64,000 nucleotides of DNA from Candidatus Liberimonas magnetica (lineage in GTDB: Bacteria; Elusimicrobiota; Endomicrobiia; Endomicrobiales; JAFGIL01): assembly GCA_020523885.1 (NCBI GenBank), contig JAJAPY010000008.1:20872-84871 (forward strand), written 5' to 3'. Made by a program: the position numbers and the translations under genes. The notes below the pieces were generated by a model. The model was not told the DNA's origin, did not search any database, and saw only the letters and a program-made list of their open reading frames with translations. How positions within the stretch are numbered: the stretch's first letter is position 1; every line of letters starts with the position of its first letter. Of the stretch, positions 40,625 to 58,769 are shown piece after piece.

Positions 40625-40690
40625 AAGAAAGAGAAAAGGGGGAGTTAGTTGATTTGTTATATTAAATCATTGCTGTCCAAATTAGGTGTC

Positions 40691-40758
40691 ATACCCGCGA
40701 AAGCGGGTATCCAGCAGTTAAAACTTGTGCCGCTATGGATTCCTGCTTTCGCAGGAAT
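40691..40758. repeat. Two REP-like GC hairpins (ATACCCGC-GAAA-GCGGGTAT and ATTCCTGC-TTTC-GCAGGAAT)
   Basis: Read directly at 40691-40710 and 40739-40758. Related (A/G)TCCCGC-N4-GCGGGA(T/C) hairpins at 2843-2860, 7857-7873, ~28640, ~29480 and ~38475. Confidence 0.8.
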
Positions 40759-40820
40759 GACAACCAAGGCTATTTCAAATCTAAAAAAGCTAATCCGACA
40801 AAACTGCAAGCCCATCTTTA

Positions 40821-41396
40821 TTGGGTTATATCGACAAGAGGATATCCTTTAAACGGTTAAAAGATACCCTCCGCTGGACACACGAAGCCGGGATTTGGAC
40901 AGGGCTTGAAACTATATGCGGTTTTCCTTATGAGACCCAGCAGGATGTTGAGTTAACTGCGGAATTTTTAAATGAGAACAGAAAACATCTAGATACGGTC
41001 TACTATAACGTATTTTACCTGGAAAACAACTCTAAAATTTACCTTTATCCTGAAAAATACGGAATTACCAATATATGCGATTTTGACCCGCAAAGCCACC
41101 CTGAAAAAGAATTATTGAACCTGCTGCGGTATAGTTTTGATGAAATATCCGGATTGAAATGGAAAGAAAAACTCGATCAGTCAATTAAAAGCTACTATTA
41201 TTTATACAATAACACAAACGGCGATGAATATTTATTTCCATACTATGAAATTGAGCACTTTTTATTTTACCTGTATAAACGTTTTAAAAATAAGGCAAGC
41301 ATAACCGAAGCATTTAAAAAAATCAATAAAGATTTTGTTAAATCGATAAAAGATAGCTCCTTCGGCCGGCGCGAACATAAAGTAATGCTGCCCTGA
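40821..41396 (+). pseudogene. C-terminal fragment of a radical SAM (B12-binding class-like) enzyme
   Basis: The ORF starts mid-domain (GLETICGFPYETQQDVELTAEFL). No CxxxCxxC N-terminal half is present, and REP hairpins lie immediately upstream. Confidence 0.55.
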
Positions 41397-42641: not shown

Positions 42642-42766
42642 GGGGGCCTAAACATTTCACCCTTGACCCTGCTTTACTTTGCTTAGTGGTCACTTATTTT
42701 TTTCATTTTTCCAAATTGATAAAGACTTACCAATATAATATAATCATTGAAGATCTAAAGAAAAGG

Positions 42767-42824
42767 GGCGTAGCTTATACCTTAAAAAGGTCGTAACTTA
42801 TACTATAAAAGTCGCAGCTTTTAC
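42767..42824. repeat. Three phased 14-bp direct repeats G(G/T)CG(T/C)A(G/A)CTT(A/T)TAC
   Basis: GGCGTAGCTTATAC 42767-42780, GTCGTAACTTATAC 42790-42803, GTCGCAGCTTTTAC 42811-42824. Spacing is 23 and 21 bp. Confidence 0.75.
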
Positions 42825-42978: not shown

Positions 42979-43557
42979 TTATGGGTTTTTCGCGTGTTTA
43001 AGGAAGCGCAGCTTATCCCATTTAATATGTTTAAAATACTTTTTCTTGTCGAATTTGTCGCCATAATATGATAAATCCCGGTCGCCGCCCTGGTTCACAG
43101 TAAAATCAGTCTCGCCGCAAATATAATCTAATATATCATTTAGTTTCCATGCAATGAAAGGCGTATTAGTATCTATAAGGCTTTCCAGCATTTTGAGAAA
43201 ATAAGGGATATAGTCATCTTGAGAAACGTTAAGTATATATTTTTGTTCCTTATTGTATGGCGGAAATAAAGTGATTCCTATAGATTGAAAATGGAATAAT
43301 ATTTCAAATGGATGCGATCCTGACCATTTTTCACTGTGATACCATTGCTCAAATTCCTTACGGCTATCAAAATCCTTGATATCAAGCATATATCCATCAC
43401 GTCTATCAGCATGAGCTTTATACATTTGGAGAGGCGTATTTCCTCTTTCTTTTGGGAAAATTGCTCTATAACAGGTTGCACAACTGTTTAGATATTCATT
43501 TAAGGAACATCCTTCTATAGGAAGAACATTTTTCTGGTAGTTGCTATATTCTGACAA
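42979..43557 (-). CDS. Hypothetical protein, last gene of the metallophosphoesterase operon
   Basis: 192-aa ORF, 6 nt downstream of the preceding gene. No family recognised. Confidence 0.6.
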   Translation of the reverse strand: MSEYSNYQKNVLPIEGCSLNEYLNSCATCYRAIFPKERGNTPLQMYKAHADRRDGYMLDIKDFDSRKEFEQWYHSEKWSGSHPFEILFHFQSIGITLFPPYNKEQKYILNVSQDDYIPYFLKMLESLIDTNTPFIAWKLNDILDYICGETDFTVNQGGDRDLSYYGDKFDKKKYFKHIKWDKLRFLKHAKNP

Positions 43558-43563
43558 TATTCT

Positions 43564-44049
43564 TTACTTTTCTTTTCTTGGAAGAATTCCCTCTAATGCA
43601 TACTTACCGAGTATCTTACCTGTACGAAATATATATGGAACGTGTTTTTCAATATAATCGGGGTTAAAGTTATTAGAATGAGTGAACTCTAAAGCGCTTT
43701 TCAAAAAGGTGTATATGTCATTATAAAATGAAGTTCCCTTTTCGATATCCAGCCTGCCATGTTGTCCAAGGAAACAAAAATATCGGTTATTATATTCGGA
43801 CATACTAAAAGGAAAAAGAACAATACCTTTTCCTTTTTTTAAAGGCGTGTAAAGATATTCCCAGAAGATATCGGGTTTTGTCTCTGAAGGAACGGCAGAT
43901 TCAGATAATTTCTTTGCAATATTATAAATATCATCATCAGGAACTGTTTTCCAGCTTGAAAACGTATTGCGAAATTGGTCGATAGTAAGTAGTTTATTCA
44001 TTTTCATATAATAAGAAAAAACATGAGCTGATTGGGCATTATAATGCAA
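43564..44049 (-). CDS. Hypothetical protein, third gene of the metallophosphoesterase operon
   Basis: 161-aa ORF. Start uncertain: TTG 44049, or ATG 44007/44001. No family recognised. Confidence 0.55.
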   Translation of the reverse strand: MHYNAQSAHVFSYYMKMNKLLTIDQFRNTFSSWKTVPDDDIYNIAKKLSESAVPSETKPDIFWEYLYTPLKKGKGIVLFPFSMSEYNNRYFCFLGQHGRLDIEKGTSFYNDIYTFLKSALEFTHSNNFNPDYIEKHVPYIFRTGKILGKYALEGILPRKEK

Positions 44050-44086
44050 TTATTCATATAGTATGAAAGTATTTTGCATTGTATTT

Positions 44087-44914
44087 TTATATAGTTTTTC
44101 TTTCTATGTTCATTTTTTCTAAATTTACCGTTATATACACAAAATCTCCCATATGATCGCCCTGCCCAGGCTGAACGCAGACAGTTTCCCCAAGTTTTGT
44201 TTTCCATGTTTCTGACATAACAGGAGATTCATGAATATGTCCGTGTAAAGTTAGCATGGGCTGGTTTTGTTTTATAAAGCGATAAATGGCTTTAGAACCC
44301 ACCTTTTCACCATTTGAACAGACATCGAGCCCGAGATCGGCCGGAGGCATGTGCATTACATATACTGCTTTTAAGTAATCTGCCGGTTTTTCAAGGCGCT
44401 CAAGTTCTTCTTCTATGGTAGGAAGCTTTTCAACATATATTTTCCAGTCAGGTATATCTTCAAAGCCATTTTCTCTTGAGAAAACACCTTCACCTTTCTG
44501 AAACCCGATTTTATAATCCTTGTCATCTTTCCGGCAGCGATCCTTAAGTAAGAACGGAAAGTCGACACAAAAGTTCATTCCGATAAAATCATAGTCTCCA
44601 ATCTTAATCTTCTTTTGAGCAAGGTATTTTACAAAAAGGTATTTGTTGCATGTCTCTTCAAAAACATTGTCAAAAGCCATTAAATCATCATTGCCCGGGT
44701 AACAAAGATAGTATATCTTCATTTCGTTAAATACTTTAAAGTGCTCAGATAGATTAAAAAGTATATATTCCTTTTGCCTATGAAGGTTATTGTCATTGGT
44801 CAGCATATCCCCGCCGTTTATGACAATATCGGGTTTGTATTCTGAGGCTGCTTTAACAAGCTGTTTGTACTTCCATGCATTGCCATGCAGGTCTGTCGTA
44901 TAGATTATTTTCAT
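44087..44914 (-). CDS. Calcineurin-like metallophosphoesterase
   Basis: Motifs DLHG, GGD, GNDD, MHMPP and GHIHE in canonical order. Confidence 0.85.
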   Translation of the reverse strand: MKIIYTTDLHGNAWKYKQLVKAASEYKPDIVINGGDMLTNDNNLHRQKEYILFNLSEHFKVFNEMKIYYLCYPGNDDLMAFDNVFEETCNKYLFVKYLAQKKIKIGDYDFIGMNFCVDFPFLLKDRCRKDDKDYKIGFQKGEGVFSRENGFEDIPDWKIYVEKLPTIEEELERLEKPADYLKAVYVMHMPPADLGLDVCSNGEKVGSKAIYRFIKQNQPMLTLHGHIHESPVMSETWKTKLGETVCVQPGQGDHMGDFVYITVNLEKMNIERKTI

Positions 44915-45189
44915 GATTTTTCATCCCCTGCCGGATTAAAAAGGATATTTCGCATATCTTCTGGCAGCCCTTCTAAAAGGTTATTTACCTTGATTACTTC
45001 AGGTTCGATAGAAGAAGCAATTTCGCGGATATTTGTAAGCACTGTATTAATATCCTCAAAGAGATTTTCATAAGTATTTAAGGTTTCTTTGGGTACTTTA
45101 TTTCGGGTAAGCTCTAATTTAACCATTAGGCGGGTATAATACCGCTGCAATTTCTTTATTTTTTCTGAGGCATTGAGTATCTCTCGCAT
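44911..45189 (-). CDS. Small helical hypothetical protein, first gene of the operon
   Basis: 92-aa ORF. Its stop overlaps the phosphoesterase start (ATGA), suggesting translational coupling. Confidence 0.55.
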   Translation of the reverse strand: MREILNASEKIKKLQRYYTRLMVKLELTRNKVPKETLNTYENLFEDINTVLTNIREIASSIEPEVIKVNNLLEGLPEDMRNILFNPAGDEKS

Positions 45190-45309
45190 CTCTTTAAATA
45201 CTTTTGATTCTTCCTTGACTATTTCTATTGATATTTTTGATGCAATACGGTTTTTTCTTAAATCAAAAGATAAAGAAATGATGCCTAATTGGTTGAAACC
45301 ATAAATCTT

Positions 45310-45546
45310 TTAGTTGTTTTTTCCGGTTATTTCCCGTTTGCTGAAGATATCTGCGACTTCTTTTTTATTTAAAACAATTTTATCGTTTTTTAGGTACTTC
45401 GCTTTATGTTTGGAAGCAGTAAAAAGCAGATATTTTTTATCAACTCCAAAGAATTCGGCCACATCAATATCAATGGCGTAATAATCGCCCCTTACTTTGT
45501 AAAGTTTTAATTTCTTGCCTTGAAATGAAAAATATTTAGTTTCCAT
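45310..45546 (-). CDS. Bro-N/ORF6N-like (KilA-N superfamily) small DNA-binding protein
   Basis: KVRGDYYAIDIDVAEFFGVDKKYL pattern resembles ORF6N/Bro-N antirepressor N-domains. Divergent from lexA. Confidence 0.4.
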   Translation of the reverse strand: METKYFSFQGKKLKLYKVRGDYYAIDIDVAEFFGVDKKYLLFTASKHKAKYLKNDKIVLNKKEVADIFSKREITGKNN

Positions 45547-45576: not shown

Positions 45577-45596
45577 ATACTCATTTTAATGAGTAT
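45577..45596. promoter_or_regulatory. Perfect palindrome ATACTCAT-TTTA-ATGAGTAT (candidate operator)
   Basis: Read directly, about 30 nt upstream of the 45546 start. Confidence 0.5.
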
Positions 45597-45606: not shown

Positions 45607-45640
45607 CATATAACACCAAGTTGTTATATGCTGTTATATA
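45607..45640. promoter_or_regulatory. CATATAACA-N6-TGTTATATG inverted repeat plus an extra TGTTATATA direct copy (candidate operators)
   Basis: Read directly: 45607-45615, 45622-45630, 45632-45640. Confidence 0.5.
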
Positions 45641-45665
45641 CACCTAAGTGTTATGTCCGCATTGC

Positions 45666-45695
45666 TTGACAAACTGTATATACATACAGTATAAT
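45666..45695 (+). promoter_or_regulatory. lexA promoter TTGACA-18-TATAAT with embedded SOS box CTGTATATACATACAG
   Basis: -35 at 45666-45671, -10 at 45690-45695, CTGT-N8-ACAG at 45674-45689. The ATG lies only 9 nt after the -10. Confidence 0.75.
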
Positions 45696-45704: not shown

Positions 45705-46337
45705 ATGGAAAAGCAAGAACTTACGAATCGTCAGCAAGAAATATTGGGTTTTATAAAAGAATCCATAAATTCTAAAGGATTTCCACCTTCCGTTAAGGAA
45801 GTCCAGGTTTACTTTGGTTTTAAGTCTCCGACTGCTGCTCAGGATCATTTAAATATGTTGGCAAGGAAAGGCTATATTTTAAGGCATCCATATATTTCCA
45901 GGGGTATTGAGATCGTTGCTGAGAAAGAACGAAAACAGGAGAACATTGATTCGTCCTCTATCCCGGTTGTCGGTCATATCTCTGCTGGAACCCCTATACT
46001 TGCTCAGGAAAACATTGAATATAACATATCAGTGGACAAATCTTTATTTGGGAATGCTGAATCTCTATTTGCGCTGAAAGTAAAAGGCGACAGTATGATA
46101 AATGCCGGTATATTTAACGGCGACTTCGCAATAATACATAAGCAAGCGGCTTTAGAAAGAGGCGAGATTGGCGCTGTACTAATTGATGATGAAGCAACCC
46201 TGAAAAGAGTTTTTATTTATAAGGATACAATGCGATTAGTGCCCGAAAACAATTTAATGAAACCTTTATTAATAAAAAATGGAGAAAAGAATATATCAAT
46301 AGTAGGCAAGCTTAAAGGAGTTATTAGAAAAATTTAG
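45705..46337 (+). CDS. lexA: LexA repressor
   Basis: Winged-HTH N-domain (RQQEILGFI...SVKEVQ...AAQDHLNMLARKGYI), an AG cleavage site region, and the S24 Ser/Lys dyad (VKGDSM ... ATLKR). Confidence 0.9.
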   Translation: MEKQELTNRQQEILGFIKESINSKGFPPSVKEVQVYFGFKSPTAAQDHLNMLARKGYILRHPYISRGIEIVAEKERKQENIDSSSIPVVGHISAGTPILAQENIEYNISVDKSLFGNAESLFALKVKGDSMINAGIFNGDFAIIHKQAALERGEIGAVLIDDEATLKRVFIYKDTMRLVPENNLMKPLLIKNGEKNISIVGKLKGVIRKI

Positions 46338-46556: not shown

Positions 46557-46681
46557 ATGTTAGTTTTATTAGAATGAAGCAATTGTATTTCTATGAATAT
46601 GAAGGCAGAGGTTTTGTATGCCTAATAAATCAAAAGCTTAAAGAAAATAGTTGGTTTATTCAAGGGGGTAATAAGGAAAAC

Positions 46682-47689
46682 ATGAAAAAGTTAATTAAAT
46701 CTGATTACATTACTTTTTTGAAAGGAATAATTACCGAGGTTAGAAAATCTCAGTATAAAGCTTATCAATCAGTTAATCGTTACACCGTTGAATTATATTG
46801 GTCTATAGGAAAACAATTGCATGATAAAATTGAAATTGCGAAATGGGGCGATGGGGTAATTGATATCCTATCAACGGATTTAAAGAAAACATTCCCAAAT
46901 ATGAGTGGGTTTAATAGAAGAAACTTATACCGCATGATACAGTTTTATAAAACTTACAGTGATAATGCGTTTGTGTCAGAGGCTCTGACACAAATCAATT
47001 GGACCAATAATTTGTTGATAATATCAAAGTCCGATACCTCTCAGGAGCGGGATTTTTATATAAATATGTGTATAAAGGAAAGATGGTCGTCACCTGAGTT
47101 AGAAAGGCAAATGAACAATCATCTCTTTGAAAAATGGTCATGTTCCGGAAAGAATAATAGGATTATTCCTCATTCCGGAGAAACAGAACCGTCCTCTCAT
47201 TTTAGAGATGAATATAACCTTGCTTTCCTGGGGCTAAAAGAACCTTTTGATGAAAAAGATTTAAGGAAGGCAATAGTACACAATTTGCGCGATTTTTTTC
47301 TTGAGTTTGGCAAACATTTGGCATTTGTCGGGGAAGAATATCCTGTAACAATAGGTAATAGAGATTTTAAAGTTGACCTGTTATTCTACCACAGAGTTAT
47401 GCAACGATTAATCGCAGTGGAATTAAAAATTAGCAAATTTGTGCCTGAATATATCGGTAAAATGCAGTTCTATCTGAACGCTCTGGACAAAAACATAAAA
47501 TTAGAGCACGAGAATCCATCAGTTGGCCTGATATTATGTAAAACCAAAAATGATGAAGTTGTCAAGGTTGCAGTTGGCAGTTTAAATAAATCCATGAAGG
47601 TAGCTACATACGAAATAATTGATCAAAAACTTCTAGAACATAAAATGCATTCTCTGCCATGTTTGGAAAACAAAACAGAAATAAAATAA
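46682..47689 (+). CDS. DUF1016/YhcG-type PDDEXK nuclease
   Basis: FKVDLLFYHRVMQRLIAVELKISKF (D...E.K) core. ATG at 46682 behind an AAGGA RBS. The track ORF from 46574 is probably an upstream extension. Confidence 0.7.
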   Translation: MKKLIKSDYITFLKGIITEVRKSQYKAYQSVNRYTVELYWSIGKQLHDKIEIAKWGDGVIDILSTDLKKTFPNMSGFNRRNLYRMIQFYKTYSDNAFVSEALTQINWTNNLLIISKSDTSQERDFYINMCIKERWSSPELERQMNNHLFEKWSCSGKNNRIIPHSGETEPSSHFRDEYNLAFLGLKEPFDEKDLRKAIVHNLRDFFLEFGKHLAFVGEEYPVTIGNRDFKVDLLFYHRVMQRLIAVELKISKFVPEYIGKMQFYLNALDKNIKLEHENPSVGLILCKTKNDEVVKVAVGSLNKSMKVATYEIIDQKLLEHKMHSLPCLENKTEIK

Positions 47690-48159: not shown

Positions 48160-48398
48160 TTAAAAATAATAAATTTAATAAGTTGGCAACAAGAATTCGG
48201 GAGATTATTGCTCAAGCAATAAAGATATATTCCCACGAAGTCGAAGTTATTATAGTTTCCCGATCTACGGATGAAAACCGTATTCAGAACATTCTTGACG
48301 GGATGCTTGATTTCTGTTATGACGAAAATATGCTTGAACTGTACAAAAAACTTTGTAGATACTACTATAAAATAAATCCATCTGTAACAGTTATATAA
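48156..48398 (+). CDS. Hypothetical protein
   Basis: 80-aa ORF. Its start overlaps the previous stop (ATGA). Confidence 0.5.
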   Translation: MIKNNKFNKLATRIREIIAQAIKIYSHEVEVIIVSRSTDENRIQNILDGMLDFCYDENMLELYKKLCRYYYKINPSVTVI

Positions 48399-51700: not shown

Positions 51701-52246
51701 CTGGACAAACTGCCCCAGCCGACTTCAGGCAGGGACCAGGCTTTGATAAGGGTTTCGGGTATGGTATCTAACGTTAAAAAACTTGTGACAAAGGAAAAGA
51801 AAGAGCAGTATGCCAGGTTCAGGCTCGAAGATCTTTACGGGGAAGTAGATGTAGTGGTATTTCCAAAAAATTTCAAGAAGATGTTAAAATACCTGGAGCT
51901 GAATACTCTGGTGGTGGTAAAAGGCCGGCTTTCGGACAGAAGCTCCGAAAGCGAGATACTGGCAGAAGAGATGATGACCATTGAAGAGGCAAAGGAAAAG
52001 ATGCCTGCTTTTACGGGATCCGTGCATCTTAAGATATCCTCTCTAGGCCTTGAAGACGAGGTCCTGGACAGGATAAAAGATATTATCAAAGAACATCCGG
52101 GAAAGTCGCCGGTATACCTGGACGTATCTTCATCCAGCCAGCATGAATACGTGGTTGAAACCTCTCTCAGGGTCAAACCGGAAGTCAATTTCTTTAAGAA
52201 CATAGAAAAAATTTTAGGGCCTGAAGCGCTTGAACTAAGGTCTTGA
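48749..52246 (+). CDS. dnaE: DNA polymerase III alpha subunit (DnaE1 type)
   Basis: PHP domain FVHLHNHTEYSLLDG, polymerase core, and a C-terminal OB fold. An alternative TTG start lies at 48707. Confidence 0.95.
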   Translation: MPNTEFVHLHNHTEYSLLDGACRILDDKGKPADMIRTMAAHFKMPAFAITDHGNMYGAIEFYNACRESGIKPIIGCEVYVAPGSRHDRKSNGMGDYYHLTLLAKDHTGYQNLMNIVSKGFLEGFYYKPRVDRELLAGYGKGIIALSGCLKGELCGALLKDDLKLAEKIAGEHRDIFGKEFYYIEIMDHGLEEQKKVNPKLIELAKRMNIPLVATNDCHYLKKEDSYNHDVLLCIGTGKTLDEPDRMRFSTDQFYYRSPQEMAKLFSHIPEAIKNTVEIAEKTSLEIGFNQLLLPDYPVPGGETAEKYLERLCREGLKKRYTDIKEEHEKRLQHELGIIKQMGFATYFLIVWDFIHYAKKNSIPVGPGRGSGAGSIVAYTLGITDVCPLKYGLLFERFLNPDRRSMPDLDIDFADTGRDRVIDYVRNKYGHNNCAQIITFGSMQARLVLRDVARAMGFTPSEGDRIAKLIPFGMNIYNAMQTVPEIAALAKSDERMNKLISSAQSLEGLKRHTGVHAAGMVIAKEEITKYAPLAKGSKDVVTTQYNDKCMLKLGLLKVDFLGLRTLTIIEDTVNLIKKSLDAKFDINTIPLDDKKTFKLYHDAKTLGVFQLESRGMRDLLRKLKPTDIEDIIALISLYRPGPMGSGMIDDFVSRKHGRTKVVYDHPVLEPILKDTHGVILYQEQVMRIAQDMAGFSAGEADGLRRAMGKKIPEEIEKERAHFINGAKKKKIEHRLSEKVFDQILHFGGYGFNKSHAAAYGILAYRTAYLKANYKIQYMASLLNSEIGRSAVGKEEEISKIVSYIQDAETLNIKILPPDIQKSEMLFSIEGANISFGLLAVKNVGEGACESITAARKANGTFKSWDDFMTRVDMHCVNRKVLESLIKAGAFDSFGESHIYTRSELIAKMDESIGWASKHQKDVSIGQELLFEINDVANNGTQSSIKVEPWSEHTALSYEKEVLGFYLSGHPLAQHTHDLLMFSQYRLDKLPQPTSGRDQALIRVSGMVSNVKKLVTKEKKEQYARFRLEDLYGEVDVVVFPKNFKKMLKYLELNTLVVVKGRLSDRSSESEILAEEMMTIEEAKEKMPAFTGSVHLKISSLGLEDEVLDRIKDIIKEHPGKSPVYLDVSSSSQHEYVVETSLRVKPEVNFFKNIEKILGPEALELRS

Positions 52247-52435
52247 CCTGAAAACTATGTTAACACAACGACTTAGCATAAGGCTTTTTCTGTTTGCAAT
52301 TAACGCCTTATCTCAACATCCCAGAAGGCCTATATACTTTCCCGTATTTCATGCCAAGGGACTCCAGCATTTGGATTTTGATGATAAGTATTAAGCCTAT
52401 TATCTAACTCCTTTTTTTATTCTTCTGATAATTGT

Positions 52436-52494
52436 ACCATAAAAAATCAGCGGATTTGCCTTTGGCAAATCCGCTGGATTGTTTTGTTAGAGTA
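52436..52494 (-). repeat. attC, distal-most in the array, with a degenerate outer core
   Basis: CCATAAAAAATCAGCGGATTTGCC-TTT-GGCAAATCCGCTGGATTGTTTTGTTAGAG. 13-bp perfect stem. Confidence 0.8.
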
Positions 52495-52500
52495 TTTATA

Positions 52501-52734
52501 TTATTTCCCGATTTCATATAGAAAATCAGGTGAGAAGTCCGCATTGTTTGGCCATACAATCGTATCTATATCTTTATTCAATCTAACCTTTCTAAAATAA
52601 GAAATATTTTTTAGTGGTTTAAATACTTTCCCTTCAAGATGATTTTTTAAATCAACAACTTTTGTTTTTCTGTTTCCAAATACTATTTTTAATTTGTAAT
52701 CTTCAAGATAGTCAAAATCTTTAATCCAGTACAT
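52501..52734 (-). CDS. DUF2442 family protein (cassette 15)
   Basis: ATG at 52734 behind GGAGGT. Partner of the upstream DUF4160 gene. Confidence 0.7.
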   Translation of the reverse strand: MYWIKDFDYLEDYKLKIVFGNRKTKVVDLKNHLEGKVFKPLKNISYFRKVRLNKDIDTIVWPNNADFSPDFLYEIGK

Positions 52735-52745
52735 ATAAATACCTC

Positions 52746-53006
52746 CTAAACCAATGGCTTTATTTTCTTTAAAATATCGTGCTTTTGAGCACGTTCCCAA
52801 TCCTCAAGCAACTCTTTTCTGTGTTCAAATGCCCACTCCAAAACAAGAGAAACGATTCTTTTTGGTAATTTCCCTTCAATAATTTCTAAATCATTTATAG
52901 AAAATGCAGCTCTTTTTCCTGCATATTTTGCATGGAAATGAGGGGGAGCATGCTCTTTAAAGTACATTGATATAATAATTCCTAAAAACCTACTAATCTC
53001 TGGCAT
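52746..53006 (-). CDS. DUF4160 family protein (cassette 15)
   Basis: MPEISRFLGIIISMYFKEHAPPHFHA signature. Confidence 0.8.
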   Translation of the reverse strand: MPEISRFLGIIISMYFKEHAPPHFHAKYAGKRAAFSINDLEIIEGKLPKRIVSLVLEWAFEHRKELLEDWERAQKHDILKKIKPLV

Positions 53007-53053
53007 CGTTTATATCCTTTCATGTTCTATTATAGCAGATTTACTTACATTTT

Positions 53054-53085
53054 TCTAACGCATTTTTTGTATTGATTTGTTAGAT
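53054..53085 (-). repeat. attC relic with cores only (TCTAAC-N19-GTTAGAT) and no stem
   Basis: Read directly. Too short (32 nt) for a functional attC. Confidence 0.5.
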
Positions 53086-53280
53086 AATTTTATTAAATTG
53101 CCACTCTGCGATTGTAAATTCGTTTATATGAAAACCGCATTTAATTGCAGCAGAAAGCCAATTAATCTGTGTTTGTCTGATTTTGTCTTTGGATTTCCAT
53201 TTTGACTCAATGAATTTAATATCAGAACCTTTCCAGCAAAATAAATCAAAAGCGCTATGCGTGCTTTTTGCCAAAATCAC
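53080..53280 (-). CDS. Mini VRR-NUC-like protein (cassette 14)
   Basis: DLFCWKGSDIKFIESKWKSKDKIRQTQINWLSAAIKCGF resembles the D..(E)xK ... Q..W core of VRR-NUC. GTG start inside the upstream attC. Confidence 0.35.
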   Translation of the reverse strand: MILAKSTHSAFDLFCWKGSDIKFIESKWKSKDKIRQTQINWLSAAIKCGFHINEFTIAEWQFNKII

Positions 53281-53323
53281 CTGCCGTGCGGAGCACGGTC
53301 AGGTGGATTGCTTTGTTAGAAAT
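53268..53323 (-). repeat. attC
   Basis: CACCTGCCGTGC-GGA-GCACGGTCAGGTG stem with one bulge, then GATTGCTTTGTTAGAA. Confidence 0.75.
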
Positions 53324-53339
53324 TTATTTGTTGTTCTAT

Positions 53340-53645
53340 TCAATATAAAGATAACTGGTTTTTTTCGTGATGAATAGTAGAAAATGCTCGGCTGGTTGTC
53401 TGATTAAGGGTTAATTTCTCGTACAATGTTTCAGGGGCAATATCTACGCCATTAGGCCAGGCTATTGTGCCGCCGTCAATAGTTGCTTTTTTGAAGATTC
53501 GCATATCTTTTAATGCTTTAAATACAGGGCCTCTATTTATATAATCTGAAAAATCTATATCGCCTTTTGTTCCGTCATCAAATACGATATGGTAAATATA
53601 GTTGCTCTTGTATTTAATTTTTTTAACTTCATTCATATTCCACAT
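53340..53645 (-). CDS. DUF2442 family protein (cassette 13)
   Basis: Diverged paralogue of 52501-52734. Downstream of a DUF4160 gene. Confidence 0.7.
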
Positions 53646-53653
53646 GTTTCACC

Positions 53654-53914
53654 TCATTTTAATGGGGCAATTTTCTTTATTTCTTTGCCGGCTTTTGATA
53701 GTTTCCAATCCGCTTCAAGTTCTGTTACATGAATGTCGATCCAATCTCTGATAAGTTTTCTTGCAGTTTTGGATTGTATGTTTCCTTTGAGTATGTTTCC
53801 CTGTAGATCAAAAACGGCTTTTTCACTTTGATATTCCGCATGCAAATGCGGCGGATTATGCTCATAATAGAACATTCTTATTACAATTCCAAAAAATTTA
53901 GAAATTATCGGCAT
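53654..53914 (-). CDS. DUF4160 family protein (cassette 13)
   Basis: MPIISKFFGIVIRMFYYEHNPPHLHA signature. Confidence 0.8.
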   Translation of the reverse strand: MPIISKFFGIVIRMFYYEHNPPHLHAEYQSEKAVFDLQGNILKGNIQSKTARKLIRDWIDIHVTELEADWKLSKAGKEIKKIAPLK

Positions 53915-53965
53915 TTATATCTCCTATCTCTTTGTTAATTTATTATAGCAAATTTTATTAGATTT

Positions 53966-54022
53966 TTCTAACACTACAGTATTTGTGCAAAAGGGGACGT
54001 CCCCTAAGCCCCTGTGTTTTTT
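53966..54022 (-). repeat. Variant attC with 14-nt palindrome AGGGGACGTCCCCT
   Basis: Plus strand TTCTAACACTACAG...AGGGGACGTCCCCTAAGCCCCTGTGTTTTTT. AACAC/GTGTT outer pairing. Confidence 0.6.
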
Positions 54023-54676
54023 ATTAATCAGCTAATAGTATTTCTCTATCCCACCAAAGCCTATTTGCTTGTTTTCTTTTGTCTTTGCAATAAAATTTGT
54101 AAGTCTCTTTTGAAATTCTTCTGGGCGATTCCGCGCTGCTTCAATGTAAGCAATACGTATTCTTCTATATGAGTCGGAAAACCTGTGATAATTCTCCCAT
54201 GCCAAATGATCGCTTTTTATTGCATTAATTATATCTGGAGAGAAAATAAACTTCTCGTCAATAATCCTTTTCGCAATATCTAGTATTGATGGATGCAGTA
54301 AATTCTCCTTAAGAAGCCATTTTAACCTCTCTTTGTTAGCTTGTGAGTAACCACTCTTGGGGTTTCTTGGTGAGAATCTTTGTGCGCTACTATTTTCGCT
54401 AACAGATTTCAGTTGGCTATCAATCCAGCCGAAACACAAAGCTTCTTCCACAGCGTCGTTATATGATATACGCGGTTTTCCTGAAGACTTGTTTGGATAG
54501 ACCAGCCAGACCTCTTTCTCTTTACTAGAGTTTAGTTCAAGCCATGCACGCCAGTCTTTTCTGTTGACTACATACAGCGTTTTAAGTTTATCCACAATAA
54601 CAACCATTCTGCGTTAACTAACCTAACTCAGGCACAAAAAGCTATCGCTATTTTCTTTCCAACATCCGAAATCAGC
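53998..54676. repeat. 679-bp direct repeat, copy 1 (YdeI cassette)
   Basis: Offset of exactly 4046 bp to 58044-58722. The encoded proteins are identical. One mismatch seen (54009 C vs 58055 T). Confidence 0.85.
54032..54607 (-). CDS. YdeI/OmpD-associated family protein, copy 1 (cassette 12)
   Basis: WRAWLE...VWLVY...ISYNDAVEEALCFGWIDS...RFSPRNPKSGYS pattern. Confidence 0.75.
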   Translation of the reverse strand: MVVIVDKLKTLYVVNRKDWRAWLELNSSKEKEVWLVYPNKSSGKPRISYNDAVEEALCFGWIDSQLKSVSENSSAQRFSPRNPKSGYSQANKERLKWLLKENLLHPSILDIAKRIIDEKFIFSPDIINAIKSDHLAWENYHRFSDSYRRIRIAYIEAARNRPEEFQKRLTNFIAKTKENKQIGFGGIEKYY

Positions 54677-54718
54677 GGAATTGCCAGAGGCAATTTCCGC
54701 TGTATTGATTTGTTAGAA
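54657..54718 (-). repeat. attC
   Basis: CCAACATCCGAAATCAGCGGAATTGCC-AGA-GGCAATTTCCGCTGTATTGATTTGTTAGAA, with one extrahelical T. Confidence 0.85.
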
Positions 54719-54767
54719 AATTTATTGTCGTATAGTTCAAATTGTTAAATTTAACGAATACCGTATT

Positions 54768-54810
54768 ACCTAACTACGTCCCCTAAGTCCGCTGGATTGT
54801 TTTGTTAGTA
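54768..54810 (-). repeat. Chimeric/short attC
   Basis: ACCTAACTACGTCCCCTAAGTCCGCTGGATTGTTTTGTTAGTA. It has the standard right half but no CAGCGG partner arm. Confidence 0.55.
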
Positions 54811-54830
54811 TTTAGATTCTATTTCTATCA

Positions 54831-55079
54831 TTATAAGGCAACTTTATGCAGTATCTCAGATATAAACGTTTGATATTTAACGCCTATATTTCTTGCTTTT
54901 TGTTTTATGCTTTCAAGGTCATGACTATTAATTCTTATGTTTAATACCGAATCTTTCTTTCTTCTGGCTATAGCTTGCGAGATAACATGAAAATCTTGCT
55001 TGTTGACAGGAGTATAAGTTCCTTCTAAAAGGTCTTTTTCAATTTCTTTTTCTTGTAAATTTAATTTTATTCTTTTCAT
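54831..55079 (-). CDS. CopG/BrnA-like antitoxin (cassette 10)
   Basis: C-terminal RHH-like IRINSHDLESIKQKARNIGVKYQTFISEILHK. 4-nt overlap with the toxin gene. Confidence 0.65.
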   Translation of the reverse strand: MKRIKLNLQEKEIEKDLLEGTYTPVNKQDFHVISQAIARRKKDSVLNIRINSHDLESIKQKARNIGVKYQTFISEILHKVAL

Positions 55080-55333
55080 TTGTTTGCTCCTTTAAATATT
55101 TTGGTATATTTTCTACTGGGGTAAAGAGTTTTGAGAAAATAGTAGTTTTCTTCTTCTACAAAAGGGACTACCCATATGTATTTTTTATATTCAAACAGCA
55201 TTATCTTTTGGTTCTCTTTGATCGGATGTCTCAATATGTTAATAAGCTTTGAATTAACTAACTCATCAAAAGAAACGCCTCTGGTTTTTATTAATCTTTC
55301 ATTTTTAAGCAAGTTCCAGCGAAGTTCTTTCAT
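55076..55333 (-). CDS. BrnT-like (DUF497-related) toxin (cassette 10)
   Basis: KNERLIKTRGVSFDEL ... VVPFV ... FLKTLYPSRK pattern. Confidence 0.55.
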   Translation of the reverse strand: MKELRWNLLKNERLIKTRGVSFDELVNSKLINILRHPIKENQKIMLFEYKKYIWVVPFVEEENYYFLKTLYPSRKYTKIFKGANK

Positions 55334-55391
55334 TGTTTTAATTGTAGCATATTACAAATGTATATACAATATGTAATTCAATATAATTTTA

Positions 55392-55451
55392 TGCTAACAT
55401 AAAAAATCAGCAGCTCCGACCGAAGCGTCGGAGTCGGCTGTATTGTTAGAA
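55392..55451 (-). repeat. attC
   Basis: GCTAACATAAAAAATCAGCAGCTCCGAC-CGAAGC-GTCGGAGTCGGCTGTATTGTTAGAA. Confidence 0.8.
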
Positions 55452-55492
55452 ATTTAATTGTTGTTATCTTAATATCTTAAGACCGCCCCTAG

Positions 55493-55963
55493 TTACTCGT
55501 GACCTTCTTTCCCTATTCTCCTTTGTAAAAGTCTTTCAAACACGGCCGCGGTAGTAGCGATTACAACAGAGACAAAAATCATAAAGAGACCCAAAGCAAC
55601 ACCACCCGCTATGTCATCCTTGCCGCGCACAGCTATAAATAGGTAGGCTTCTGCAGCTACAATAAAACCAACAAGAGATATCGCACAGTATTCTATTGTA
55701 CGTAAAGCTCTCACGGATTTTAGTGAGAATACTTTATTTTGTCCGAGGTATCCGAGCAACACAAACGATTGATATAACGCCACGAAAAATGAAATGGACG
55801 CTATATACGCATACGCCAGAAAAGGATCTTTAAAGTAAATCTCAAAGAGCGTGGCGTGCACGTTCCTGCCCTCAATATGGGGTTCCCAAAGCATAAAGGC
55901 AAGAGCGCCGATGCCGATGACTACAATGATTACCTGAAGAAATATTGTTGAGTTCTTTTTCAT
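55493..55963 (-). CDS. Four-TM membrane protein, possibly DUF2975-like (cassette 9)
   Basis: Hydrophobicity pattern. The family call is tentative. Confidence 0.5.
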   Translation of the reverse strand: MKKNSTIFLQVIIVVIGIGALAFMLWEPHIEGRNVHATLFEIYFKDPFLAYAYIASISFFVALYQSFVLLGYLGQNKVFSLKSVRALRTIEYCAISLVGFIVAAEAYLFIAVRGKDDIAGGVALGLFMIFVSVVIATTAAVFERLLQRRIGKEGHE

Positions 55964-55982
55964 AGATAGTTTTTATAGGATA

Positions 55983-56042
55983 TCTTAACATAAAAAATCA
56001 GCTGCCCGCCTTGAGTGGGTCAGCTGTATTGACTTGATAATA
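55983..56042 (-). repeat. attC with a degenerate ORF-proximal core (GATAATA)
   Basis: TCTTAACATAAAAAATCAGCTGCCCGCC-TTGA-GTGGGTCAGCTGTATTGACTTGATAATA. Confidence 0.7.
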
Positions 56043-56060
56043 TAAGGGCAATTAATTCTA

Positions 56061-56273
56061 TTAAGCAGCCCATTTGAATAGAAGTTTTTTGTGCGAATGA
56101 GCACATTCGCTAAGATACAAATTAATTAAATTTTGGTATGGCATTCCATACTCATTTGCTAAACCCTTGAAATAACTAATGGTTTCATGGTCAAGACGAA
56201 TGGTAATTTGTTTTTTCAGTTTTTTGAAGTATGGATTCTTTGTTGCATTGCTAAAATCGTATTGTTTATTCAT
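56061..56273 (-). CDS. brnA: BrnA antitoxin (cassette 8)
   Basis: ITIRLDHETISYFKGLANEYGMPYQNLINLYL pattern. 4-nt overlap with brnT. Confidence 0.75.
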   Translation of the reverse strand: MNKQYDFSNATKNPYFKKLKKQITIRLDHETISYFKGLANEYGMPYQNLINLYLSECAHSHKKLLFKWAA

Positions 56274-56563
56274 GACAATTTCTCCTTATATTGTTTTTGT
56301 TCTTTTTTGTTTGCTTTTCTAGCTGAAATAATTCTAATTATCTCATCATCTTTTCTATAGCAATGGCAAACAACTAACAATCGTAAAATACGGCTTACGC
56401 CAAGCATAATAAAACGGTCTTCATGGTCAGAATGTGATGGATCATGTATCAATAAAGCATTGGGGTCATAAAATATTGTTTTTGCTTCTTCAAAAGATAT
56501 TCCATGTTTCTTTTTATTGCTATTATCTTTTTTCTTGTCCCATTCAAATTCAATGTGCTTCAT
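56270..56563 (-). CDS. brnT: BrnT toxin (DUF497) (cassette 8)
   Basis: FEWDKKKDNSNKKKHGISFEEAKTIFYDP ... IRIISARKANKKEQKQY. Confidence 0.8.
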   Translation of the reverse strand: MKHIEFEWDKKKDNSNKKKHGISFEEAKTIFYDPNALLIHDPSHSDHEDRFIMLGVSRILRLLVVCHCYRKDDEIIRIISARKANKKEQKQYKEKLS

Positions 56564-56598
56564 AATTATATTGTAATTATATTCTAATTATTTGTCAA

Positions 56599-56659
56599 GT
56601 CTAACATCCGAAATAAGCTACTCGACCTGAAGGGGAGGGTCAGCTGTATTGTGTTAAAT
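56599..56659 (-). repeat. attC
   Basis: GTCTAACATCCGAAATAAGCTACTCGACC...GGGAGGGTCAGCTGTATTGTGTTAAAT. The stop of the upstream ORF lies in the core. Confidence 0.75.
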
Positions 56660-57370
56660 ATCAGTTTCTTTTGATTTTATAAATTCATAAAATTGATAAC
56701 TAAAACTTGTGTATGCAAAACCAGTACCTAAATCCTGGCTTTTTCTATATTCTCCAAGCTCGTATTTATACCATTCTGTTGTAGAACTAAATATTCCTAA
56801 GGATTTCATTTCTTCTATGGCAGAATCAACTAAATAGGGCTCAAAGACATTTTTCAAATTATTTATTATTCTACGTTTATCAATTTGTACAGGTTGGCAA
56901 GAGCTTTTATTAAGATATTTTATTAATGGTTCTCTATAAACTTTATCAATTTCTATTAAAACTAATACAGCAGAACAAGACATGTTTCTTAGAATATCAA
57001 TAAATTTCAATTTTTTCATAATTGGTATCTTTTTATTATTAATGCCGTTTATCAGTGCGTTTACAAATAATTCTTGCTTTTCTTCTATTTGTGCATCCAT
57101 CGCAGAAGCAAAGATTTTATTTACAAATAAGTTGCCATCCTTAGTTTTTAACCATTTGTCACATAATAATTTCTTTACATCGGCAACTTTTAATTCTAAA
57201 TGATTTGTAAATGTTTTAGCATTTCTATCAAATACGTGTTTTTTAAATACATCATAGCCCAATACTATTGGTAATAAAATAGGATATTCCGATAGCAATA
57301 CTGTCCTTGAAACAGTTTTTAAAGAATTAAAGAGACTTTTTGTTTGTTTTGTTATTTTTAGTTTTGTCAT
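56654..57370 (-). CDS. Hypothetical protein, possibly Abi_alpha/DUF4393-like (cassette 7)
   Basis: ATG at 57370, just outside the attC. FASAMDAQIEEKQELFVNALINGIN ... FIDILRNMSCSAVLVL resembles the DUF4393 pattern. Confidence 0.35.
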   Translation of the reverse strand: MTKLKITKQTKSLFNSLKTVSRTVLLSEYPILLPIVLGYDVFKKHVFDRNAKTFTNHLELKVADVKKLLCDKWLKTKDGNLFVNKIFASAMDAQIEEKQELFVNALINGINNKKIPIMKKLKFIDILRNMSCSAVLVLIEIDKVYREPLIKYLNKSSCQPVQIDKRRIINNLKNVFEPYLVDSAIEEMKSLGIFSSTTEWYKYELGEYRKSQDLGTGFAYTSFSYQFYEFIKSKETDI

Positions 57371-57371
57371 T

Positions 57372-57434
57372 TCTTTACATAAAAAATCAGCGGATTTTGC
57401 CGAAGGCAAATTCCGCTGTATTGATTTGTTATCT
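57372..57434 (-). repeat. attC
   Basis: TCTTTACATAAAAAATCAGCGGATTTTGCC-GAA-GGCAAATTCCGCTGTATTGATTTGTTATCT. Confidence 0.8.
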
Positions 57435-57436
57435 TT

Positions 57437-57894: not shown

Positions 57895-57956
57895 AATAAC
57901 CTCCGAACATATAACATATTTCGTTATAAGTATAATCAATAATTATTTAATTTTCA

Positions 57957-58013
57957 AGATAACATCCGAAATCAGTGGTTTTGCGGAGCAAAATCCGCTG
58001 GATTGTGTTAGAA
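57957..58013 (-). repeat. attC
   Basis: AGATAACATCCGAAATCAGTGGTTTTGC-GGA-GCAAAATCCGCTGGATTGTGTTAGAA. Confidence 0.8.
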
Positions 58014-58043
58014 ATTTCATTGCTAAAGTTGTCAAGTTGACTT

Positions 58044-58766: not shown

Positions 58767-58769
58767 GTT

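What the first reader, a model, noticed from the sequence alone, without database searches (positions are those of the whole stretch)
42979..45189. Compact four-gene operon: 92-aa helical protein, calcineurin-like phosphoesterase and two unknown proteins. Candidate undescribed system
The genes overlap or are separated by no more than 37 nt (ATGA overlap at 44911-44914; 6-nt gap at 43558-43563). The operon lies in an AT-rich island next to lexA, a Bro-N/ORF6N-like gene and a PDDEXK nuclease. Only the phosphoesterase (DLHG/GGD/GNDD/MHMPP/GHIHE) is recognisable; I cannot place the 92-, 161- and 192-aa partners in any family. Metallophosphoesterases act as effectors or signal-degrading enzymes in several defence and counter-defence contexts, so this could be a new defence module, an anti-defence (cyclic-nucleotide-degrading) module, or a DNA-end-processing module tied to the SOS response.
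Basis: inference. Interest (0 to 1): 0.75.

Follow-up and report, generated by a model that had tools for sequence, protein, structure and literature searches.

The report
Broken three-gene phosphoesterase cassette beside lexA
The supposed four-gene operon is really three genes, two of them cut by premature stop codons, but one broken gene belongs to an undescribed protein family with no recognisable fold that repeatedly sits next to phosphoesterase genes in uncultured bacteria and archaea.

Summary
The four minus-strand ORFs exist at the stated coordinates, in an Elusimicrobia MAG. They are not four genes.

- **161-aa and 192-aa ORFs:** these are the two halves of one ~340-aa gene ("FAM350"), split by an in-frame TAA at 43564-43566. 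About 200 homologues of ~340-370 aa align across the junction. AlphaFold2 folds the joined sequence as one protein (pLDDT 94).
- **92-aa ORF:** this is the helical tail of the neighbouring "ORF6N-like" gene, also cut by an in-frame TAA (45310-45312). A sister contig (L002) encodes both genes intact.
- **Ancestral unit:** three genes, namely an ORF6N-like/coiled-coil protein, a metallophosphoesterase (MPE) and FAM350. Only the MPE is intact here.
- **FAM350:** no Pfam, NCBIfam, PADLOC, PHROG, PDB-sequence or Foldseek match.
- **Linkage:** an MPE of one of three subfamilies lies next to FAM350 in 12 of 81 other FAM350 loci, usually immediately upstream. The 275-aa MPE family itself is widespread and usually sits among housekeeping genes.
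- **SOS context:** the cassette is transcribed divergently from lexA, across an intergenic region holding a CTGT-N8-ACAG LexA box. L002 has the same layout.

Function is unknown. My best guess is an SOS-linked nucleic-acid-processing or conflict module of a variable island, probably defunct in this genome.

The parts
44911..45546 (-). Interrupted gene for an ORF6N-like DNA-binding domain plus a C-terminal helical hairpin. It has 211 codons with one internal TAA. The intact orthologue is 207 aa in L002:5375-5998.
   Evidence: The read-through translation aligns 1-205 with the L002 207-aa protein at 45% identity, E 2e-59. The Pfam ORF6N alignment extends across the stop (residues 14-93, profile 2-84 of 86) but scores 22.2 bits, below the 27.8 cut-off.
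45310..45546 (-). N-terminal fragment (78 aa) of the ORF6N-like gene.
   Evidence: ORF6N E 0.0011, profile 2-62 of 86, truncated domain. 62% identical to L002 207-aa residues 1-68.
45310..45312 (-). Premature in-frame TAA inside the ORF6N-like domain.
   Evidence: The L002 orthologue reads through this column. No in-frame ATG/GTG/TTG occurs until 45189, so about 40 codons are lost.
44911..45189 (-). The 92-aa ORF of the finding. It is the C-terminal helical-hairpin part of the ORF6N-like gene, starting at a conserved internal Met, and overlaps the phosphoesterase start by ATGA.
   Evidence: 37% identical to L002 207-aa residues 118-203. The single-sequence AF2 model gives two long helices, 115-146 and 153-192, with pLDDT 84-94. 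No family above noise.
44087..44914 (-). Intact calcineurin-like metallophosphoesterase (275 aa).
   Evidence: Metallophos 44.9 bits and Metallophos_3 42.6 bits, both above cut-off. PADLOC PDC-S10 partial hit. phrog_1649. D8, H10, D36, N75, H188, H224, H226 and H228 are invariant in 33 homologues. 1838 homologues across bacteria and archaea. Nearest solved structure is Aquifex aq_1956, 2YVT.
42979..44001 (-). Interrupted FAM350 gene (about 340 codons with one internal TAA), a member of an undescribed two-domain family. The ORF listing TTG start at 44049 is probably not used.
   Evidence: phmmer of the joined sequence gave 207 hits, most 340-370 aa, aligned as one stretch across the junction. 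Alignment. AF2 pLDDT 94 and pTM 0.86 as one chain. The L002 orthologue is intact at 341 aa, 68% identity.
43564..43566 (-). Premature in-frame TAA in the inter-domain linker of FAM350. L002 has CAA (Gln) here.
   Evidence: L168 has a TAA at the same alignment column.
45674..45689 (+). LexA (SOS) box CTGTATATACATACAG, lying between the -35 and -10 of the lexA promoter in the intergenic region shared with the cassette.
   Evidence: It is the only CTGT-N8-ACAG in the 64 kb. The surrounding promoter matches the consensus 12 of 12. A near-identical box and promoter sit upstream of the MPE-lexA operon in L002.
45705..46337 (+). lexA, transcribed divergently from the cassette.
   Evidence: LexA_DNA_bind 79.5 bits and Peptidase_S24 106 bits. 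Called as 210 aa in L001.
45577..45596 (.). Perfect palindrome ATACTCATT-N2-AATGAGTAT upstream of the ORF6N-like start. Operator-like, function unknown.

Best explanation
The locus is the remnant of a three-gene accessory cassette, not a four-gene operon.

Anatomy (shown). The cassette runs on the minus strand in this order:
- (i) A divergent ORF6N-like DNA-binding protein with a coiled-coil tail.
- (ii) A binuclear metallophosphoesterase whose start overlaps the stop of gene (i) by ATGA.
- (iii) FAM350, a ~340-aa two-domain protein of an undescribed family with no detectable fold relative.

Genes (i) and (iii) each carry one premature in-frame TAA. That is what makes the locus look like ORF6N plus 92 aa, and 161 aa plus 192 aa. 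Only the phosphoesterase is intact. The recurrent core elsewhere is phosphoesterase plus FAM350, usually with the phosphoesterase directly upstream at -4 to +17 nt. This holds across about five FAM350 lineages and three phosphoesterase subfamilies. A Bro-N or ORF6N-type protein is sometimes attached.

Regulation (inferred). The cassette lies in an AT-rich variable island. It is transcribed divergently from lexA across an intergenic region that carries a LexA box, and the sister contig L002 has the same layout. I therefore infer that expression was coupled to the SOS response, or to a prophage-style repressor/antirepressor switch.

Mechanism (inferred, weak). The phosphoesterase is the catalytic part and acts on nucleic-acid ends or nucleotides, by analogy with PdeM- and Mre11-type enzymes. 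FAM350 is its specificity or sensor partner.

State in this genome (inferred). The cassette is probably inactivated, leaving at most the phosphoesterase working.
For: Split genes:
- Same-frame ORFs.
- The L002 341-aa ORF covers both the 161-aa and 192-aa ORFs, and the L002 207-aa ORF covers both the ORF6N-like fragment and the 92-aa ORF.
- 207 FAM350 homologues, mostly full length and spanning the junction.
- AF2 single-chain model with pLDDT 94.
- The codon is CAA in L002 and TAA here.

The ORF6N-like break is inside the domain, and no restart codon occurs for about 40 codons.

Intact phosphoesterase.

Recurrent pairing:
- A phosphoesterase is adjacent in 12 of 81 other FAM350 loci, 11 of them on the same strand.
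- Metallophos ties for the most frequent Pfam family among 145 FAM350 neighbours, at 11 members.
- The lineages are distinct, with 24-60% identity between clades.
- A Bro-N protein lies downstream in L105, L112, L113 and L138.

SOS context:
- LexA box in the lexA promoter.
- Same box upstream of the MPE-lexA operon in L002, facing the cassette operon.
- An S24 repressor lies near the cassette in L126, and a LexA-like ORF in L146.
- The small phosphoesterases next to FAM350 weakly resemble the DNA-damage endonuclease PdeM, and the Bro-N partner weakly resembles DinD.

Decay-prone family: 12 of 87 loci have a disrupted FAM350.

Island context: AT-rich, DUF1016/YhcG next door, and a truncated radical-SAM fragment at 40821-41396.
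Against: - No experiment or known homologue fixes any function.
- The LexA box is 128 nt from the cassette's first start codon, and no good minus-strand promoter was predicted there.
- All three genes were seen together in only one other contig, from the same sample.
- About 85% of FAM350 loci have no adjacent phosphoesterase, and the 275-aa phosphoesterase family usually sits among housekeeping genes.
- Both halves of FAM350 keep every conserved residue, and the stop lies in a linker followed by a TTG. The split product could therefore still work.
- No integrase, tRNA or clear att repeats mark the island as mobile.
Confidence: 0.6

Rival explanations
1. The split is functional. FAM350 is made as two polypeptides, an N-domain and a C-domain restarting at the TTG two codons after the stop. 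Alternatively, it is made as a full-length protein by programmed read-through or slippage in the A-rich linker. On this reading the cassette is still active.
For: - The stop lies in the predicted inter-domain loop: strand to 147, helix 148-151, next helix from 164.
- A TTG follows two codons later.
- All family-invariant residues are retained in both halves.
- L168, only 35% identical, has a TAA at exactly the same column.
- Frameshifts in L148, L156, L162/L167 and L171 fall within about 10 codons of it.
- In the unbiased set, 3 of 9 breaks fall in 5% of the length.
Against: - The closest relative, L002, is intact with CAA at that codon.
- Most family members are single ORFs.
- Other disrupted copies break elsewhere, or several times.
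- The A-rich linker is an obvious mutation and sequencing hot spot.
- The second interrupted gene is cut inside its ORF6N-like domain with no restart for 40 codons, which looks like decay.
- L165-L168 and L171 were chosen because they ended at the boundary, so selection bias applies.
Confidence: 0.2
2. The cassette, at least in its intact form, is an anti-phage defence or abortive-infection system. The phosphoesterase is the effector and FAM350 the sensor. The nonsense mutations reflect the usual loss of costly defence genes.
For: - The phosphoesterase partly matches PADLOC candidate PDC-S10, the ORF6N-like fragment matches PDC-S05, and the adjacent DUF1016 matches PDC-S02 at E 6e-118.
- Neighbours of FAM350 elsewhere include AbiEi, PIN, ParE, HipA-N/HTH and AAA_14-DUF4143 ATPases. 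T5orf172 and TniQ occur in L002.
- The family is patchily distributed across bacteria and archaea.
- 14% of copies are disrupted.
Against: - No match of FAM350 or the 92-aa part to any PADLOC model above noise.
- PDC entries are untested candidates.
- FAM350 is absent from 50,697 phage and 72,556 plasmid records and from IMG/VR. That says nothing for defence.
- The 275-aa phosphoesterase family is mostly in housekeeping contexts.
Confidence: 0.25
3. One reading: four separate proteins form a compact, functional four-gene system.
For: Tight spacing and the ATGA overlap. Each ORF has a possible start codon.
Against: Homologues show only three genes. The 161/192 and 78/92 boundaries are single stop codons inside conserved single-chain proteins.
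Confidence: 0.04
4. The two TAA codons are sequencing or assembly artefacts, and the genome really carries an intact three-gene cassette.
For: The source is a metagenome-assembled genome. The FAM350 stop lies in an A-rich stretch.
Against: An independent Logan assembly of run SRR16235686 (L001) carries the same sequence, with both ORF pairs at the same spacing. Both defects are substitutions, not the homopolymer indels typical of errors. The caveat is that both assemblies may derive from the same reads.
Confidence: 0.06

Closest known systems
Calcineurin-like metallophosphoesterases of the Metallophos_3 type (Aquifex aq_1956, PDB 2YVT)
   Same: The 275-aa protein passes the Pfam cut-offs for PF00149 and PF14582. 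It keeps the metal-binding D-x-H, G-D, G-N, H and G-H-x-H residues. 2YVT is its only PDB sequence relative.
   Different: 2YVT has no assigned function. Similarity is confined to the C-terminal third (profile E 1.5e-7). Motif III reads GNDD rather than GNHD/E.
PdeM, the ligase-associated DNA-damage-response metallophosphoesterase endonuclease (NCBIfam TIGR04123; Lhr-MPE-ligase operons, from my own knowledge of the Shuman laboratory's work)
   Same: A small phosphoesterase in a DNA-damage context. The 160-188-aa phosphoesterases directly upstream of FAM350 in L105 and L111 have PdeM as their best NCBIfam hit.
   Different: The scores are 29-36 bits against a cut-off of 150. The window's own phosphoesterase does not hit PdeM. 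No ligase, Lhr helicase or exonuclease neighbours were seen.
Prophage immunity regions: an S24 repressor divergent from an antirepressor-type Bro-N/KilA-N/ORF6N gene (domain family as I recall it from Iyer, Koonin and Aravind 2002)
   Same: A LexA/S24 repressor gene is divergent from an ORF6N-like gene with operator-like palindromes between them. Bro-N proteins accompany FAM350 in other loci.
   Different: No integrase, structural or replication genes are present. The repressor has a canonical LexA DNA-binding domain. ORF6N membership is below the Pfam threshold.
PADLOC 'phage defence candidates' PDC-S10, PDC-S05 and PDC-S02
   Same: The phosphoesterase, the ORF6N-like fragment and the adjacent DUF1016/YhcG protein hit these candidate models.
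   Different: These are single-gene, untested candidates. The phosphoesterase hit covers only profile positions 115-196 of 223. FAM350 and the helical tail have no PADLOC model.
Mycobacteriophage A10ZJ24 Gp48, a phage metallophosphoesterase that damages host DNA and counters defence (PMC12287305)
   Same: A metallophosphoesterase used in phage-host conflict. The window protein hits the phage family phrog_1649.
   Different: No sequence comparison with Gp48 was made. The window is not a phage. FAM350 is absent from the phage collections.

Membership tests
Calcineurin-like metallophosphoesterase (Pfam PF00149) | Score above the Pfam gathering threshold | tested here: met
   44.9 bits against 21.5, covering residues 1-229.
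Calcineurin-like metallophosphoesterase (Pfam PF00149) | Metal-binding motifs D-x-H, G-D, G-N-H/D, H, G-H and G-H-x-H | tested here: met
   D8/H10, D36, N75, H188, H224 and H226/H228 are invariant in 33 homologues. Motif III is GNDD.
Metallophos_3 (PF14582) | Score above the gathering threshold | tested here: met
   42.6 bits against 28.2. The best stretch covers only residues 171-272.
PdeM (TIGR04123) ligase-associated damage-response endonuclease | NCBIfam score above cut-off, plus ligase/Lhr neighbours | tested here: not met
   The window phosphoesterase has no hit. Relatives next to FAM350 score 29-36 bits against 150. No ligase or helicase neighbour was found.
ORF6N domain (PF10543) | Score above the gathering threshold over the whole domain | tested here: not met
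   The fragment scores 19.6 bits and the read-through product 22.2 bits (profile 2-84 of 86), against a cut-off of 27.8. The L002 orthologue has no hit. The resemblance is real but membership is unproven.
Known or candidate defence systems in PADLOC-DB v2 | All components match models of one system | tested here: not met
   Only single-gene candidates were hit (PDC-S10 partial, PDC-S05 weak). The 161- and 192-aa ORFs gave 0 families and the 92-aa ORF gave only noise.
   The 161- and 192-aa ORFs are one protein in about 200 homologues. The 78- and 92-aa ORFs are one protein in L002. The full set was found in L002 only.
FAM350 (undescribed family defined here) | Single-stretch alignment over both domains, with the conserved ADxR[HD]GGML, G[SG]HPFEI, PP, GE..F.VN and W[DE] motifs | tested here: met
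   HMM scores of 126 and 259 bits for the two halves.
LexA regulon member (SOS gene) | A LexA box overlapping the gene's promoter, and damage induction | tested here: inconclusive
   The box at 45674-45689 overlaps the lexA promoter and lies 128 nt upstream of the cassette's first start codon. L002 is analogous. Induction is not testable here.
Prophage or integrative mobile element | Integrase, att repeats, tRNA target, and phage or conjugation genes | tested here: not met
   No tRNA. Only weak repeats. No integrase among the ORFs at 38-50 kb. FAM350 is not in the phage or plasmid collections.

The most novel reading that the evidence does not exclude
Phosphoesterase plus FAM350, with an optional Bro-N/ORF6N-type DNA-binding partner, is a previously undescribed two- or three-component conflict or DNA-damage system. 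It is shared by bacteria and archaea and built around a protein with a new fold. The recurrent breaks at one linker codon (TAA at the same column in two homologues only 35% identical) would then reflect a regulated split or read-through rather than decay.
Probability: 0.2. Interest if true: 0.65.

Novelty: new variant of a known kind. Interest (0 to 1): 0.4.

Why it matters
For annotation, it shows how two nonsense codons can make a decaying three-gene cluster look like a novel four-gene operon.

Beyond this window, it defines an uncharacterised protein family:
- About 200 representatives at 50% identity.
- Found in Elusimicrobia, Desantisbacteria, Victivallales and Thermoplasmatota/Euryarchaeota.
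- A confident predicted structure with no relative in the PDB or BFVD.
- A non-random link to three different metallophosphoesterase subfamilies and to LexA/S24 repressors.

If the pair is a functional unit, it would be a new phosphoesterase-based module in DNA-damage or phage-host biology. The instance in this window is probably dead, so the intact L002-type copy is the one to study.

Tried and rejected
- **Word-indexed homologue search** with the 161- and 192-aa ORFs separately found only the self hits. This wrongly suggested orphan genes. The full HMMER search with the joined sequence resolved it.
Replacing the stop with X was accepted.
- **Pfam, NCBIfam, PADLOC and PHROGs** on the halves and on 53 family members found nothing.
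- **PDB profile search** gave only noise: E 0.045 to an HNH protein and 0.15 to a nucleotidyltransferase.
- **Foldseek of the pLDDT-94 model** against the PDB and BFVD gave best E values of 0.57 and 0.18, with TM about 0.1.
- **FAM350 in other collections:** absent from IMG/VR, INPHARED phages and PLSDB plasmids.
- **Neighbourhood of the 275-aa phosphoesterase** in 80 GTDB genomes showed no conserved partner and mostly housekeeping genes. Its closest relatives at 65-72% identity lack FAM350 and ORF6N neighbours.
- **Stop-codon reassignment** was considered and rejected. dnaE and the other genes in the window are intact, and genes in this cluster end in TAA.
- **Same-frame adjacency** is common among neighbouring genes in the window, so it is not evidence by itself.
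- **Island boundaries:** no tRNA, no Rfam hit and only weak repeats.
- **Structure of the ORF6N-like/helical protein:** The single-sequence model is poor for the N-terminal part, so I ran no further search on it.
- **Literature searches** found no description of this cassette.
Full report
**1. Source and observation**

The window comes from an Elusimicrobia metagenome-assembled genome (locus tags LHV68_). An independent Logan assembly of run SRR16235686 (L001) carries the same 8 kb.

The four minus-strand ORFs exist exactly as listed:
- 44911-45189, 92 aa
- 44087-44914, 275 aa
- 43564-44049, 161 aa
- 42979-43557, 192 aa

The ATGA overlap is real. The stretch from about 43 to 48 kb has GC 0.32-0.36, against 0.39-0.47 in the flanks. 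The 275-aa protein is a calcineurin-like metallophosphoesterase (MPE). It scores 44.9 bits for Metallophos and 42.6 bits for Metallophos_3, both above cut-off. Its metal-binding residues are intact.

**2. The 161- and 192-aa ORFs are one gene**

- The two ORFs share a frame and are separated only by TAA plus two codons.
- Searched separately in the word-indexed database, each found only itself.
- On a second contig from the same sample (L002), a single 341-aa ORF covers both, at 74% and 62% identity.
- A full HMMER scan with the joined sequence (stop replaced by X) returned 207 proteins. Most are 340-370 aa and are matched in one stretch from about residue 34 to 351, across the junction (alignment).
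- AlphaFold2 on that alignment gives one compact chain with mean pLDDT 94 and pTM 0.86. The stop falls in a loop between an N-terminal alpha/beta domain and a C-terminal domain.
- L002 has CAA (Gln) where the window has TAA, so one C-to-T change explains the stop.
- The L002 protein starts at MNKLLTIDQF, which corresponds to ATG 44001 in the window. The TTG start at 44049 and the '37-nt gap' are therefore probably artefacts of mechanical ORF calling.

I call this family FAM350.

**3. The 92-aa ORF is the tail of the neighbouring ORF6N-like gene**

- The 78-aa ORF at 45310-45546 and the 92-aa ORF are in the same frame with a single TAA between them.
- The read-through translation aligns end to end with a 207-aa protein of L002 (45% identity over 205 residues, E 2e-59).
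- With read-through, the Pfam ORF6N alignment extends across the stop to profile positions 2-84 of 86. It stays below the gathering score, at 22.2 against 27.8 bits. I therefore call the domain ORF6N-like.
- This stop is inside the domain, and no in-frame start codon occurs before 45189. About 40 codons are lost.
- A single-sequence AF2 model shows the 92-aa part as a two-helix hairpin with pLDDT 84-94.
- In both the window and L002, this gene ends directly at the MPE start: an ATGA overlap here and a 2-nt gap in L002.

**4. What the unit is**

The ancestral unit has three genes: ORF6N-like/coiled-coil, MPE and FAM350. L002 has all three intact but in a different order: FAM350, then ORF6N-like, then MPE. 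In the window, two of the three carry premature stops.

**5. What FAM350 is**

- None of 53 members hits Pfam.
- There are no NCBIfam, PADLOC or PHROG hits.
- The PDB profile search gives only noise.
- Foldseek of the confident model finds nothing in the PDB or BFVD, with best E values of 0.57 and 0.18.
- The family is absent from IMG/VR, INPHARED phages and PLSDB plasmids.
- Named members are 'hypothetical proteins' of Candidatus Desantisbacteria and of Thermoplasmatota/Euryarchaeota MAGs. A Victivallales copy is L046.
- Conserved motifs are ADxR[HD]GGML, G[SG]HPFEI, PP, GE..F.VN and W[DE].

**6. Neighbourhood evidence, anchored on FAM350**

These results come from 81 loci other than the window.

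- An MPE gene is directly adjacent in 12 loci, 11 of them on the same strand. Most often it lies immediately upstream, at -4 to +17 nt.
- Three MPE subfamilies are involved:
  - the 275-aa type in L002, L046, L085, L126 and L143
  - a 160-188-aa type in L105 and L111-L113
  - a 220-aa type in L095, L100 and L157
- These loci span about five FAM350 clades that share 24-60% identity.
- Among 145 neighbouring proteins, Metallophos and AAA_14 are the most frequent Pfam families, with 11 members each. Bro-N, AbiEi, PIN, ParE and MarR/HTH also appear.
- A Bro-N protein follows FAM350 in L105, L112, L113 and L138, which form one related lineage.

**7. Neighbourhood evidence, anchored on the MPE**

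- The 275-aa family is large: 1838 hits, with 50-56% identity between bacteria and archaea.
- Only 1 of 80 GTDB loci has FAM350 nearby.
- Its neighbours are heterogeneous and mostly housekeeping.
- Its closest relatives, at 65-72% identity, lack both partners.

The linkage is therefore one-sided and facultative. By my estimate, chance adjacency would give about 0.3 cases, assuming metallophosphoesterases make up about 0.2-0.3% of genes. The observed 12 cases are well above that.

**8. SOS context**

- The only CTGT-N8-ACAG in the 64 kb lies at 45674-45689, between the -35 and -10 of a consensus promoter for lexA.
- The cassette is transcribed divergently from that intergenic region.
- L002 has a near-identical box and promoter driving an operon of MPE paralogue, lexA and two small genes. 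Facing it is the operon that contains the intact cassette.
- L126 likewise has two MPE paralogues. One is divergent from an XRE-S24 repressor, and the other directly follows FAM350.
- L146 has a LexA-like ORF near FAM350.
- The small MPEs next to FAM350 weakly resemble the damage-response endonuclease PdeM, and the Bro-N partner weakly resembles DinD. Both are far below the family cut-offs.

These points suggest an SOS or damage link but do not prove one. No convincing minus-strand promoter was predicted next to the box.

**9. Decay or design?**

FAM350 is disrupted in 12 of 87 loci, mostly by frameshifts at various positions.

Several breaks cluster in the K/E-rich, A-rich inter-domain linker:
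- L168, only 35% identical to the window copy, has a TAA at the identical alignment column.
- L148, L156, L162/L167 and L171 have frameshifts within about ten codons of it.

Part of this clustering is selection bias, because I picked L165-L168 and L171 on the grounds that their products ended at the boundary. In the unbiased set, 3 of 9 breaks still fall in 5% of the length.

Three readings remain possible: a mutational or sequencing hot spot, a tolerated split into two domain polypeptides, or a programmed event. I favour simple inactivation in this window, for three reasons:
- The sister copy is intact.
- The second gene is cut inside a domain with no restart.
- A truncated radical-SAM fragment nearby (40821-41396) indicates a decaying region.

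**10. Comparison with known systems**

- The MPE is a member of PF00149 and PF14582. Its nearest solved relative is the uncharacterised Aquifex aq_1956 (2YVT).
- It partly matches PADLOC candidate PDC-S10. The ORF6N-like fragment matches PDC-S05 and the adjacent DUF1016/YhcG matches PDC-S02. All are untested single-gene candidates.
- The layout of a LexA/S24 repressor divergent from a Bro-N/ORF6N-type gene resembles a prophage immunity region. However, no integrase, tRNA, att repeats or phage genes are present.
- A phage MPE that damages host DNA has been described (PMC12287305). I did not compare the sequences.
- No library or paper I could search describes the MPE-FAM350 pairing.

**11. Verdict**

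It is not a four-gene system, the full set is rare, and this copy is probably defunct.
- The most interesting residue is FAM350 itself, together with its recurrent coupling to phosphoesterases and its oddly recurrent break point.
- Interest is 0.4.

Noticed in passing
window 45674-45689; L002 3366-3385: An Escherichia-type SOS box (CTGT-N8-ACAG) sits between the -35 and -10 of a perfect sigma-70-like lexA promoter in this Elusimicrobia MAG. A near-identical box and promoter occur in the sister contig, where a metallophosphoesterase paralogue is the first gene of the lexA operon.
   Followed up: partly
L168 1276-1278 and window 43564-43566; also L148, L156, L162/L167, L171: Two FAM350 genes only 35% identical carry an in-frame TAA at the same alignment column. 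Frameshifts in several other copies fall within about 10 codons, in the A-rich inter-domain linker. It could be a hot spot, a tolerated split or programmed recoding. This is unresolved.
   Followed up: partly
window 45577-45596 and 45607-45654: A perfect palindrome ATACTCATT-N2-AATGAGTAT and nested TATAACA/TGTTATA inverted repeats lie in the lexA/cassette intergenic region. They look like operators for a regulator other than LexA.
   Followed up: no
window 46574-47689: A DUF1016_N + YhcG PDDEXK nuclease lies downstream of lexA and matches the PADLOC phage-defence candidate PDC-S02 at E 6e-118. It is followed by two small ORFs (136 and 80 aa) with no family. The 80-aa ORF has a 54%-identical relative in L003, near another copy of the phosphoesterase.
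   Followed up: partly
window 40649-41396: The 191-aa ORF at 40821-41396 matches only the last third of the Radical_SAM profile (positions 122-166), so it looks like a truncated gene. Just upstream, overlapping ORFs on both strands (40649-40852 on +, 40657-40815 on -) each translate to PAKAGI...IPAFAGMT, which suggests a palindromic interspersed repeat element.
   Followed up: no
window 42761-42810 (weak third copy at 48346-48372): Two tandem copies, about 23 nt apart, of AAAAGGnCGTArCTTATAC lie in the 337-nt gap downstream of FAM350. A 74% copy lies near the other end of the AT-rich island, 5.6 kb away. The match is too weak to call att sites.
   Followed up: partly
L002 (whole contig) and L126: Both contigs carry two paralogues of the 275-aa phosphoesterase a few kb apart, one beside a LexA/S24 repressor and one beside FAM350. 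L002 also has an HTH + HipA-N (Couple_hipA) protein, TniQ and T5orf172, a mobile or defence-island flavour.
   Followed up: partly
L046 5560-6189: In the Victivallales locus, a DSP-PTPase phosphatase of the polymorphic-toxin-associated type (Tc-R-P, PTP-SAK) lies about 0.4 kb upstream of FAM350 (with a doubtful overlapping ORF between), which is itself followed by the metallophosphoesterase. This puts two different phosphatase folds around FAM350.
   Followed up: no
window 52000-62000: A second, longer AT-rich stretch (GC 0.29-0.37) follows dnaE. It contains a run of 150-250-aa minus-strand ORFs. I did not examine it.
   Followed up: no
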